Source: Heteronotia binoei (lineage: Eukaryota). Taken from it: a DNA stretch of 64,000 nucleotides. The position numbers are program-made. Below are positions 15,001 to 18,000 of the stretch, in pieces; within the stretch, counting starts at the first letter, position 1, and every line of letters starts with the position of its first letter. Location of the stretch: assembly GCF_032191835.1 (NCBI RefSeq), contig NC_083243.1, positions 143,220,001-143,284,000 of the forward strand. Reading direction: 5' to 3'.

Positions 15001-18000
15001 TTATACCATTTATTAATAACCTGTTTAAAAAACAACAGCACTGAGTAAACACTTGAGTGCATTGAGTGTACCAGATAAACATTTTAAATGCTCATAACAT
15101 TGACATGGGTTTGAATATCATTCACCACCACCAGGGGTTATTTTGTAGCAAAATAGGTGGTGGAGCTCATCCAGAGATTGTTATGCAGCTACACATACTA
15201 TTCAATGGACAAGGAGGCGGATCTCTCAGAAGGAGGAGGAGGAACTCTCAGAAAGGTTCAGGAGCTGTGCTCCTGTGAGCTCCCACTGAATCTGAGGCCT
15301 GATCACCACTATTGTCAAAGTCACTTTCCAATAAATTTGTGCACAACTTTCAGAATTATGGTGCATAATACCACTCACAACAAGATATATTTGTTGAGGT
15401 AGAACTGTAGTCTATAAATGGCAAAATAAATGGCTTCAGTACTGGGAGATCAGAAATCCTACCCTGCAAGGGCCATCTTGTGAAAAGGCAACTAGATCCT
15501 GGACAAGAAATAATATAGCAATTGTGAACATTACACAAAAAAGTTGTATCATACTGGATATTTTATTTATTATAGATCTATTGATGATCTATGCAGTTCT
15601 AATAGCTTGAAAAATAAATGTAAGCAAAGCACTGGGGAGACATTTAAAATGTATCAGAACTATTAGCAGCAGCACCCTCAATATAAAATGTACTTGGTTG
15701 AAACCTGATGTAACTGTTGGCAGTCTAGCTATGGTACATAGCATTGTTTAAAGATTCAAATGAGGAAAGTCATTCAGCATCCTTTTTGGCAAAGGAAAAT
15801 GCGTCATCAGGCTTTCCACAAGGGATTCCTATTAAGAACTGTAAAGATGCCATTTCCTTTCATTATTTGACCATGTTTTCACTTATTTCAAACTACATAA
15901 GGTATATATACATCCTCTTAAAAATAAGGGATCACTTTTGCAATCCAGAGCTCTCCTCCTACATTTGCTATAATTAGAGATGTAAAATTTCTGGAATTTA
16001 AAGCTATGGGAAAAAATTGGAACTTTTTTGTTTATGGGGTTTTTTTTCTGGGAGAAAATGGAAAATTGGAATATACGTAGCAATTTTTCTTGTCATATGT
16101 AAATACAGGGGTTGTTTTGTAAAAAATAGGTGGTGGAGCTCATTAGCATAACTCATTAGCATATGCCAGCCAAAAGCAACCCAGCCAAAAGCAAGAAGAG
16201 AGAGCCCTGGGCAAGTGAGACCTGCTTGGGCTGGCCTCGCTTGCCTGGGACTCTTCTGGGCTGCCCTCCGCCACAGTCAAAAGGCCAGCAAGTAGGGTTG
16301 CAAAGTCCAGCTCAACAAATATCTGGGGACTTTTGGGGTGGAGCCAGGAGACTTCTGTGATGTCATTTTCTGTGATGTCACTTCCAGGTCAAAGATCAAG
16401 TGATGTCACTTCCACTCATTCGATGATGTCACTTCCAGCACACTCCACTAAAACCCCACATCTTCCTTTGACATCACTTTCTGGGCACTCTCCCAAACCT
16501 GCCTTTTCCTCTGAAGAAACTTCTTCCCACCCCTAAACTTCAAACATACTGTTGTATATAACTTCCCACCCCCACCTTTTCCCCATTTTACATTACCTCT
16601 AGGCCAGGGGTGGTCAAAATTGCTTAATGCTAAGAATCACATAGAATAAACATCAGCTGTTTGAGAGCCACAAGACATGAACATCAGCTGTTTGAAACAG
16701 GCACGTAGGCAAATAGATGGGGGCAGGGCTTGAATTTGGTAGGAGCTCACAGGAGCACAGCACCTGAACCTCCAGCCAGGGTCTGTATGCAGTGGGCAGT
16801 TCTCTCCCCACTGCACACAGATTCTGGGGCACACACAAATGAGATATGCTATTGAGCTCCCACACCTTCTTTTCTACAAAATGACCCCTGGATGGGGGAG
16901 GAGGGAGGGAGAGGTGGGAAGAAAGCAACTTTAACTTTAAATGCATTCTCCAAGCTGCCAGCTGGCTTGGAAAAATGATTTAGAGAGAGAAATGCCTTCT
17001 CCAAGCTGGCCAATGGGGCAGCAGTGGGGGCTTCGGGAGCCACACAGTGGGTGTTTTCGCACTCACCTTCAGCCGGCGCCGCGACCCTCTTGACGACGGA
17101 GGATCTGTGCTGATTTCCCACACGAAGCGCTGGAGCAACCAGAAGAGCCGCCAATTTCCGGCGCGAAGCCCGCTCAAGCGTTTTCCTGCTTCTTGGCGAT
17201 TTACGTTTGAGCGGGCTTCGCGCCGGAAATTGGCGGCTCTTCTGGTTGCTCCAGCGCTTCGTGTGGGAAATCAGCACAGATCCTCCGTCGTCAAGAGGGT
17301 CGCGGCGCCGGCTGAAGGTGAGTGCGAAAACACCCAGTATGTGTGAAAGAGCCACATGTGACTCCTGAGCCTCAGTTTGGCCACCCTTGCTCTAGACTTT
17401 TAGGCCTCCTGCCTGTGCAAAAATAACAAAAGAAATTGCATAAAGCATCAAGGATGCTGTAGAATCTTACTGATGGGGAGAGTTATAGACAATATAGCAA
17501 AACATATTTACTTGTACCAAAATAAATAACCTAACCAAAGAACTCTGGATTGGTTTGTTTTTAAAGAAGGTCAAATTTCAGCAGAAAACAAAGCAGGCCA
17601 AAAGAAGAGAATTTGACTTAAGCAGCAATAGGGAACTCCAGCAGATACATTTCACTCAGCACACATACCAAGCATAATTCATAGCTTCAAAACAGACCAA
17701 AAAAAACCCTCACCACCACAAAAATGCAGTGTTAATTTGAAAATTATACTGTCATCAGATTGTGCTTTAACAATAAAAAATAATGCCAACAGAATACTTT
17801 CTGCATATACTCCACAACTAATTTAAGAAGAAGAAGATATATTTGCAATAAAAAAGGCCAACGCCATGCTGGGAATTATTAGGAAGGGAATTGAAAACAA
17901 ATCAGCCAGTATCATAATGCCCCTGTATAAATCGATGGTGCGGTCTCATTTGGAGTACTGTGTGCAGTTCTGGTCGCCGCACCTCAAAAAGGATATTATG

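What the first reader, a model, noticed from the sequence alone, without database searches (positions are those of the whole stretch)
17049..17335. Very young, almost fully palindromic 287-bp MITE family (two copies)
Copy 1 has 129-bp perfect arms and copy 2 (30568-30854) differs at one base I could find. Both are CpG-rich with no visible CpG decay and have different 3-bp TSDs (AGT, TAT). A 3-bp TSD with GGG termini fits PIF/Harbinger. Two near-identical copies in 14 kb suggest a recent or ongoing burst and an active autonomous partner elsewhere.
Basis: partly seen in the sequence, partly recalled or inferred. Interest (0 to 1): 0.65.

Follow-up and report, generated by a model that had tools for sequence, protein, structure and literature searches.

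The report
Young palindromic MITE pair, 3-bp TSD
Two almost identical 287-base hairpin-shaped "jumping DNA" fragments really are inserted 13.5 kb apart in this reptile-like genome and look very recent, but which transposon family moves them cannot be settled from this window.

Summary
Both elements (17049-17335, 30568-30854) are 287 bp and lie in the same orientation. They differ at 1 of 287 bases. In copy 1, bases 1-129 pair perfectly with bases 159-287 around a 29-nt centre. Each copy has 31 CpGs (o/e 1.18, against 0.23 for the window). The flanks are unrelated, and each copy is bracketed by a 3-bp direct repeat (AGT, TAT). Copy 1 sits inside an older hAT-like MITE, and two uninterrupted paralogues show that exactly 290 bp (287 + 3) were added. 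This is a real and very young non-autonomous TIR transposon.

The PIF/Harbinger label is not established. The TSD length fits, but neither TSD matches that superfamily's characteristic TWA target. No transposase or Myb ORF and no further terminus lies in the window. The GGG...CCC ends rule out Chapaev/CACTA.

Copy number, a burst and an active partner could not be tested, because no eukaryotic genome collection was available. A single local hop explains two copies in 14 kb as well as a burst does.

It is an ordinary kind of element. It has moderate interest as evidence of recent DNA-transposon activity in an amniote.

The parts
17046..17048 (.). Left target-site duplication of copy 1 (AGT)
   Evidence: The paralogous empty sites at about 4975-4985 and 18778-18788 read CACACA-A-TATGTG, where copy 1 reads CACAC[AGT]-element-[AGT]ATGTG.
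17049..17335 (+). MITE copy 1, 287 bp. The 5' arm is 17049-17177, the asymmetric centre 17178-17206 and the 3' arm 17207-17335. The termini are GGGTGTTTTCGCACTCACC and its reverse complement.
17336..17338 (.). Right target-site duplication of copy 1 (AGT)
17113..17169 (+). Sub-terminal direct repeat ATTTCC-N4-CGAAGC. It occurs at 17113-17128 and 17154-17169 (13 of 16 identical, 41 bp apart) and is mirrored in the other arm at 17215-17230 and 17256-17271. It is a candidate protein-binding motif, which is inference only.
   Evidence: 9 of 500 dinucleotide shuffles of the arm reach 13/16.
30565..30567 (.). Left target-site duplication of copy 2 (TAT)
30568..30854 (+). MITE copy 2, 287 bp, in the same orientation as copy 1 (99.65% on the plus strand, 93.0% on the minus strand)
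30680..30680 (+). The only difference between the copies (T here, G at 17161). It breaks the palindrome pair with element position 175, so it arose in copy 2. It is not a CpG transition.
30855..30857 (.). Right target-site duplication of copy 2 (TAT)
16605..17389 (+). Older hAT-like MITE that hosts copy 1. Its termini are CAGGGGTGG.CAAA... and its 8-bp TSD is CTCTAGGC/CTCTAGAC. It is not part of the element but supplies the empty-site test.
   Evidence: (families D8, D10)

Best explanation
Both loci carry a non-autonomous, cut-and-paste (TIR) DNA transposon of MITE type. It is 287 bp, codes for nothing, and is almost a perfect palindrome.

Shown: each copy was inserted independently into unrelated DNA. 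The insertion adds 287 + 3 bp. The copies are nearly identical to each other, and each is nearly identical to its own reverse complement.

Inferred: a transposase encoded elsewhere recognises the identical ends, perhaps together with the sub-terminal ATTTCC-N4-CGAAGC repeats. It cuts the element out and integrates it at a 3-bp staggered cut, whose repair makes the TSD. The palindrome most likely arose when one transposon end plus its sub-terminal region was duplicated in inverted orientation, so both ends are equally good substrates.

The insertions are recent. The pair is 0.35% diverged (Poisson 95% interval 0.009-1.9%). All 14 CpGs are intact in each of the four arms, in a genome with strong CpG depletion. 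The superfamily is unresolved. A PIF/Harbinger-type enzyme is the leading candidate on TSD length alone. The pair may reflect either a genome-wide amplification or one local hop with repair of the donor site.
For: The two copies match at 286 of 287 bases and have different flanks. The left and right 200-bp flanks of copy 2 have no other match in the window. The flanks of copy 1 match only older repeat paralogues. Two paralogous empty sites show a clean 290-bp insertion with a 3-bp duplication. The 3-bp partition is the only one with perfect TSDs and symmetric termini. The hairpin energy has z = -41.8.

There is no coding signal. No Pfam family matches any of the 8 ORFs that run through the element (2 of the 16 ORFs, 6 of the 144). 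A search of 1.84 billion protein representatives gave one hit at E <= 0.001 (E = 2.3e-5), a tandem-repeat protein matched over 34 residues at 36% identity.

Evidence of youth: the CpG o/e is 1.18 against 0.23 for the window. The o/e of the decay products TG+CA is 0.93 against 1.26. The youngest LINE pair in the window is 97.1% identical, against 99.65% for this pair. Other hairpin-like repeats in the window have decayed arms, for example 93% for 39064-39360/39501-39797.

It is not bacterial or plasmid DNA. The 19-mer gave 3 hits in 596 Gb of prokaryotic contigs against 4.3 expected by chance, and none extends beyond 23 nt. There was no blastn match in 72,556 plasmids. No Rfam family reaches its gathering score.
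Against: Only two copies could be examined, so the TSD length, target preference, copy number and age distribution rest on n = 2. No autonomous partner was seen. The absence of CpG decay could also mean the element is unmethylated in the germ line rather than young. Identity between copies 13.5 kb apart could in principle be maintained by gene conversion. Neither TSD fits the TWA rule of the leading candidate superfamily. The sub-terminal motif is weakly supported (9 of 500 shuffles).
Confidence: 0.85

Rival explanations
1. It is a true PIF/Harbinger (Tourist-like) MITE, mobilised by a DDE_Tnp_4 transposase together with a Myb/SANT protein.
For: A 3-bp TSD is the hallmark length of this superfamily. 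The Myb-like protein of Harbinger3_DR binds a short motif in the sub-terminal regions (passage), and this element has a repeated sub-terminal motif. A Harbinger has invaded and exploded in one squamate lineage, leaving many short non-coding derivatives.
Against: 0 of 2 TSDs are TWA. The two targets share no extended consensus, although PIF/Harbinger elements are described as having a 9-15 bp target preference. No PIF-type ORF lies in the window.
Confidence: 0.4
2. It belongs to another or an undescribed lineage that makes 3-bp TSDs without TWA specificity. Candidates are Zator-like elements or a divergent branch of the PIF/Harbinger-related group.
For: The TSDs AGT and TAT look unconstrained. 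Zator-1 of amphioxus is described as palindromic with 3-bp TSDs.
Against: The amphioxus Zator-1 TSDs are TAA/TTA, which are not matched here either. No Zator terminus sequence was available for comparison. With n = 2 a relaxed TWA preference cannot be told from no preference.
Confidence: 0.3
3. The pair results from one local transposition event, with the donor site restored from the sister chromatid. The family is low-copy and there was no burst.
For: The copies are 13.5 kb apart, in the same orientation, and differ by 1 base. For two random copies to fall within 13.5 kb by chance at even a 5% rate, a 1-2 Gb genome would need several thousand copies (my arithmetic, with an assumed genome size). 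Local reinsertion is common for cut-and-paste elements (general knowledge).
Against: Nothing in the window argues against it. A high copy number would explain the same spacing. Both readings require recently active transposase.
Confidence: 0.4
4. The TSD is 4 bp (CAGT, CTAT) or 5 bp, and the element is 286 or 285 bp. That would point to other superfamilies.
For: Both targets have a C 5' of the trinucleotide, so a 4-bp partition is also perfect in both copies. A 5-bp partition matches at 9 of 10 positions.
Against: The 4-bp partition makes the termini asymmetric (GGGTG against GGTGT). The 5-bp partition needs a mutation in a TSD of an element that has otherwise changed at 1 of 287 bases.
Confidence: 0.07
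5. The copies are not young. They are old copies kept identical by gene conversion or hairpin-templated repair, and kept CpG-rich because they are unmethylated.
For: The copies are close enough for ectopic conversion. CpG-island-like composition can accompany hypomethylation.
Against: This requires three separate maintenance processes. Other palindromic repeats in the same window have decayed arms. The host repeat around copy 1 is only 73-88% identical to its paralogues, while the TSDs are still perfect.
Confidence: 0.05
6. It is a segmental duplication, an assembly artefact or a contaminant.
For: None beyond the high identity.
Against: Homology stops exactly at the termini and the flanks are unrelated. 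The TSDs and an empty-site match are present. There is no bacterial or plasmid match.
Confidence: 0.01

Closest known systems
Tourist-like MITEs of the PIF/Harbinger superfamily (for example mPing, or the non-coding derivatives of Harbinger-Snek in sea kraits)
   Same: It is short and non-coding, with TIRs and a 3-bp TSD. It is amplified or moved in trans and has very low divergence between copies.
   Different: The TSDs are AGT and TAT rather than TWA. No shared extended target was seen. The arms are 129-bp perfect inverted repeats, not the 14-25 bp or roughly 15-bp TIRs given for the superfamily. No partner with DDE_Tnp_4 and Myb was seen. The sequences of Harbinger-Snek termini are not printed in the text read, so identity with that family was not tested.
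Zator-1 elements of amphioxus
   Same: They are described as palindromic class II elements with 3-bp TSDs.
   Different: Their TSDs are TAA/TTA and their TIRs are 33 bp. The host is a different phylum. No sequence comparison was possible.
Chapaev/CACTA (CMC) non-autonomous elements of lizards
   Same: They have 3-bp TSDs and MITE derivatives in a squamate genome.
   Different: CMC termini are invariably CAC...GTG and the Chapaev3 TSD is TWA. Here the ends are GGG...CCC. The anole Chapaev families are old, at 12% divergence or more.
Foldback-type or long-TIR palindromic MITEs in general
   Same: Almost the whole element is one inverted repeat around a short asymmetric centre.
   Different: This is a structural description, not a family, and it says nothing about the enzyme. 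The comparison rests on recalled general knowledge.

Membership tests
MITE (non-autonomous TIR DNA transposon) | Terminal inverted repeats | tested here: met
   Arms 1-129 and 159-287 are perfectly complementary in copy 1.
MITE (non-autonomous TIR DNA transposon) | Target-site duplication flanking independent insertions, with an empty site | tested here: met
   AGT/AGT and TAT/TAT. Two paralogous empty sites exist for copy 1. None was available for copy 2.
MITE (non-autonomous TIR DNA transposon) | Small size and no coding capacity | tested here: met
   287 bp. No Pfam family matches the ORFs through it. No credible protein relative was found.
MITE (non-autonomous TIR DNA transposon) | Multiple homogeneous copies in the genome | tested here: inconclusive
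   2 copies in 64 kb. The genome could not be searched.
PIF/Harbinger | 3-bp TSD | tested here: met
   with the caveat that a 4-bp partition is not strictly excluded.
PIF/Harbinger | TWA (TTA/TAA) target and extended target preference | tested here: not met
   0 of 2 TSDs are TWA. There is no shared consensus over 23 bp. n = 2 only.
PIF/Harbinger | Autonomous relative with the same termini encoding a DDE_Tnp_4 transposase and a Myb/SANT/MADF protein | not testable with these tools
   None lies in the window: the termini occur only at the 4 ends, and 160 ORFs show only RVT_1 and hAT-dimerisation domains. No eukaryotic genome collection was available.
Chapaev / CACTA (CMC) | Invariable 5'-CAC...GTG-3' termini | tested here: not met
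   The termini are GGGTG...CACCC.
Zator | 3-bp TSD (TAA/TTA in amphioxus Zator-1) and a Zator transposase partner | tested here: inconclusive
   The length is met and the sequence is not. The partner and termini could not be compared.
hAT | 8-bp TSD | tested here: not met
   No 8-bp partition fits. This feature is met by the host repeat at 16605-17389, not by this element.

The most novel reading that the evidence does not exclude
The element marks a currently active DNA transposon in an amniote (probably squamate) genome that makes 3-bp TSDs without the TWA target rule. It would be either a new target-relaxed branch of PIF/Harbinger or an undescribed lineage. Its foreign-looking composition (60% GC and CpG o/e 1.18 in a 41% GC, CpG-depleted host) would reflect a very recent horizontal arrival, as documented for Harbinger-Snek in sea kraits.
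Probability: 0.15. Interest if true: 0.6.

Novelty: new member of a known kind. Interest (0 to 1): 0.35.

Why it matters
Cut-and-paste transposons that are still moving are uncommon in amniotes. In the papers read they are reported for the anole and sea kraits, with a past expansion in Myotis bats. A family whose two visible copies differ at one base would be a candidate for an active system. It would be useful as a population marker, as a source of insertion polymorphism near genes, and possibly as a trace of horizontal transfer. A 129-bp perfect hairpin with 31 CpGs is also a potential site of cruciform formation and fragility, of methylation spreading, and of double-stranded RNA if transcribed. 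None of this lies beyond known transposon biology.

Tried and rejected
(1) More copies or a partner inside the window. The 19-nt terminus with up to 3 mismatches matches only the 4 known ends. Sensitive blastn of the element against the window finds only the two copies.

(2) Copies elsewhere. The only open DNA collection holds prokaryotes. It gave 3 chance-level 19-mer hits, with 4.3 expected and no extension beyond 23 nt.

(3) Plasmid or vector origin. There was no blastn match.

(4) RNA gene. Rfam gave 0 hits at gathering thresholds in the window. At E <= 1 there were only sub-threshold matches to long-hairpin models, for example Fungi_SRP at 38.7 bits against a cut-off of 65 and mir-552 at 32.8 against 100. 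I read these as generic hairpin resemblance.

(5) Protein-level trace. One open frame of the element (95 aa) was searched against 1.84 billion representatives. The single hit (E = 2.3e-5, 36% identity over 34 residues, counted in 5 repeats) is a tandem-repeat protein and was rejected. The other frames were not searched.

(6) Literature look-up of the terminus. The 12-mer and its reverse complement occur in 3 and 2 papers, all judged unrelated from their titles and abstracts. This covers only the held open-access texts.

(7) Yuan and Wessler 2011, for a table of superfamily termini, is not held. A fungal transposon paper gave no TSD data, and neither did a tardigrade paper.

(9) The MAFFT global alignment of the copy 1 locus with its paralogues misplaced the insertion. 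It was replaced by separate local alignments of the flanks.

(10) One search-term syntax error was corrected.

Full report
**What is there**

They differ at one base, element position 113, which is G at 17161 and T at 30680. They lie in the same orientation, with 99.65% identity on the plus strand and 93.0% on the minus strand.

Copy 1 compared with its own reverse complement has its first mismatch at position 130. Bases 1-129 and 159-287 are therefore perfect inverted repeats around a 29-nt asymmetric centre. The one variant in copy 2 breaks the 113:175 pair, so copy 1 keeps the ancestral state. The change (G to T) is not a CpG transition.

As single-stranded DNA the element folds into one hairpin of -200 kcal/mol. 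Shuffles average -54.6 kcal/mol, z is -41.8, and 0 of 200 shuffles fold as well.

**Composition**

- Each copy has 31 CpGs: 14 in each arm and 3 in the centre.
- GC is 60-61% and CpG o/e is 1.18-1.19. The window as a whole has 40.7% GC and CpG o/e 0.23.
- The two copies are the most CpG-dense 287-bp windows in the 64 kb, with a maximum of 31 against a median of 1.
- The decay products TG+CA are not in excess. Their o/e is 0.93, against 1.26 for the window.

Each arm serves as an internal copy of the other. Across the four arms (4 x 129 nt) there is only a single change, and none of the 14 CpGs per arm has been lost since the palindrome formed.

**Proof of insertion and TSD length**

Homology between the loci stops at the termini. 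The flanking trinucleotides are AGT/AGT for copy 1 and TAT/TAT for copy 2. Base composition gives a chance of about 3e-4 that both would match.

Copy 1 lies inside an older repeat at 16605-17389. That repeat has termini of the type CAGGGGTGGCCAAAC and an 8-bp TSD, CTCTAGGC/CTCTAGAC. It is a hAT-like MITE (the 8-bp TSD criterion is).

Two uninterrupted paralogues, near 4710-5031 and 18722-19013 on the minus strand, align to both flanks of copy 1. Across the junction they read CACACA-A-TATGTG, where copy 1 reads CACAC-AGT-[element]-AGT-ATGTG. Removing 287 + 3 bases restores the paralogue's length exactly. Copy 2 has no paralogous site in the window.

I enumerated the alternative boundary placements:

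- The 3-bp model is the only one with perfect duplications in both copies and symmetric termini (GGGTG at both ends).
- Both targets happen to have a C 5' of the trinucleotide. A 4-bp model (CAGT, CTAT; 286-bp element) is therefore also perfect, but its ends are asymmetric.
- A 5-bp model matches at 9 of 10 positions.
- Two copies cannot formally exclude these, so I take 3 bp as the most economical reading.

**What it is not**

- It is not an RNA family. There were 0 Rfam hits at gathering thresholds in the window. Around the element there were only sub-threshold matches to long-hairpin models.
- It is not coding. No Pfam family matches any ORF through it. One open frame searched against 1.84 billion protein representatives returned a single weak hit to a tandem-repeat protein, which I reject.
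- It is not bacterial or plasmid DNA. There were 3 chance-level 19-mer hits in 596 Gb of prokaryotic contigs against 4.3 expected, none extending beyond 23 nt. There was no blastn match in the plasmid collection.
- It is not a segmental duplication, because the flanks are unrelated.

**Host**

The window is rich in vertebrate repeats:

- CR1-like LINE tails at 17827-18393, 46749-47524 and 56048-56662. Their best named relatives are turtle proteins at 67-77% identity and bird proteins at about 48-58%.
- A reverse-transcriptase fragment at 34956-35507 on the minus strand. Its best named relatives are deer RTs at 72-77%. I read these as BovB-type, which is a recalled label.
- A hAT dimerisation domain at 24004-24315 on the minus strand.

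Bov-B, CR1 and hAT MITEs together are what the anole paper lists for a lizard genome (passages). I infer a reptile, probably a squamate. I do not take the window for human. The species was not determined.

**Which transposon family**

From the papers read as search-selected passages, apart from the first quarter of the sea-krait paper's text:

- PIF/Harbinger elements make 3-bp TSDs at a characteristic TWA site. They show an extended 9-15 bp target preference and need a DDE transposase plus a Myb-like protein. That protein, in Harbinger3_DR, binds a short sub-terminal motif.
- Chapaev/CMC elements make 3-4 bp TSDs, have invariable CAC...GTG ends, and in Chapaev3 use TWA.
- Amphioxus Zator-1 is palindromic with 3-bp TAA/TTA TSDs.

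Here the ends are GGG...CCC, which excludes CMC. The TSD length fits PIF/Harbinger and Zator, but 0 of 2 TSDs are TWA. The two 23-bp targets share no clear consensus.

A direct repeat, ATTTCC-N4-CGAAGC, occurs twice per arm, 41 bp apart. Only 9 of 500 shuffles match it. It is a candidate binding site and no more than that.

The window holds no further terminus. None of the 160 ORFs of at least 75 aa (16, 144) carries a PIF-type transposase or Myb domain. The only domains found were RVT_1 and hAT-dimerisation.

I therefore do not file the element as PIF/Harbinger. It works like a 3-bp-TSD cut-and-paste MITE. PIF/Harbinger is the leading candidate, at about 0.4.

**Age and dynamics**

The pairwise divergence is 1/287 = 0.35%, with a Poisson 95% interval of 0.009-1.9%. 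The youngest LINE pair in the window is 97.1% identical. Other hairpin repeats in the window have arms at 82-94% complementarity.

If I assume a neutral rate of about 1e-9 per site per year, a recalled order of magnitude, the copies separated on the order of a million years ago or less. The uncertainty is wide.

"Burst" and "active partner" could not be tested. One local transposition with donor-site repair gives the same picture as a high-copy family. For two random copies to lie within 13.5 kb with appreciable probability, several thousand copies would be needed in a 1-2 Gb genome (my arithmetic, with an assumed genome size).

**Comparison with the literature**

- In the anole, PIF/Harbinger is reported only as domesticated ORFs without TIRs or TSDs.
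- In sea kraits, a horizontally acquired Harbinger (Harbinger-Snek) reached 8-12% of the genome, with many short non-coding derivatives.
Identity with that family is therefore untested.
- This family makes up only 0.9% of the window (574 of 64,000 bases).
- The terminus 12-mers appear in the held open-access texts only in 5 papers whose titles and abstracts are unrelated.
- Repbase and Dfam could not be consulted, so the family may already be catalogued there.

**Verdict**

This is a real, very young, almost fully palindromic MITE with a (most simply) 3-bp TSD. It is an ordinary kind of mobile element and a new member of a known kind as far as I could check. The superfamily label and the burst inference remain open.

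Noticed in passing
window 16605-17389, 4710-5031, 18722-19013 (-), 30243-30321 + 31150-31230: An older hAT-like MITE family of about 320 bp, with termini CAGGGGTGGCCAAAC and 8-bp TSDs (CTATAACC twice at 4710-5031; CTCTAGGC/CTCTAGAC at 16605-17389). Copies are 73-88% alike. Both copies of the young MITE lie between ends of members of this family. At 30243-31230 the interior is unrelated to the other copies and the 8-bp flanks do not match.
   Followed up: partly
window 39002-39862: A second, larger palindromic element of about 0.8 kb, with ends CCCTGTGTAGCAC.../...GTGCTACACAGGG. The arms 39064-39360 and 39501-39797 are 93% complementary, with further paired segments on both sides (I1, I9, I18). 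The flanks AAAT/ATTT extend the palindrome, so no clear TSD could be read.
   Followed up: partly
window 39858-39989: A small 132-bp hairpin repeat with 53-nt arms that are 94% complementary and a 26-nt spacer (I21). A partial similar string lies at 38960-38980.
   Followed up: no
window 17781-18503, 46916-47726, 56050-56767: Three CR1-like LINE 3' ends. The pair at 17842-18503 / 56111-56767 is 97.1% identical over 662 bp. This suggests recent LINE activity. The best named protein relatives are in turtles.
   Followed up: partly
window 56660-61350 (-): A run of long minus-strand ORFs (up to 285 aa) with one RVT_1 match at 56802-57074 and CpG-rich stretches at 57300-57700 and 60000-61500. It looks like a fairly young retroelement, abutting the CR1 tail. 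The type was not determined.
   Followed up: no
window 24004-24857 (-): Three adjacent ORFs in different frames, the last with a hAT C-terminal dimerisation domain (E = 2.1e-6). This is a frameshifted hAT transposase remnant.
   Followed up: no
window 37955-38249: Apart from the two MITE copies, this is the only region with 25 or more CpGs per 287 bp (GC 59-65%, o/e 0.78-0.89). It may be a CpG island or promoter. The ORFs there have no Pfam match.
   Followed up: no
window 34956-35507 (-): A reverse-transcriptase fragment (RVT_1, E = 6e-13). Its best named relatives are deer LINE RTs at 72-77%. It is BovB-like by recollection. It lies next to the N run at 34506-34687, which was left alone.
   Followed up: partly
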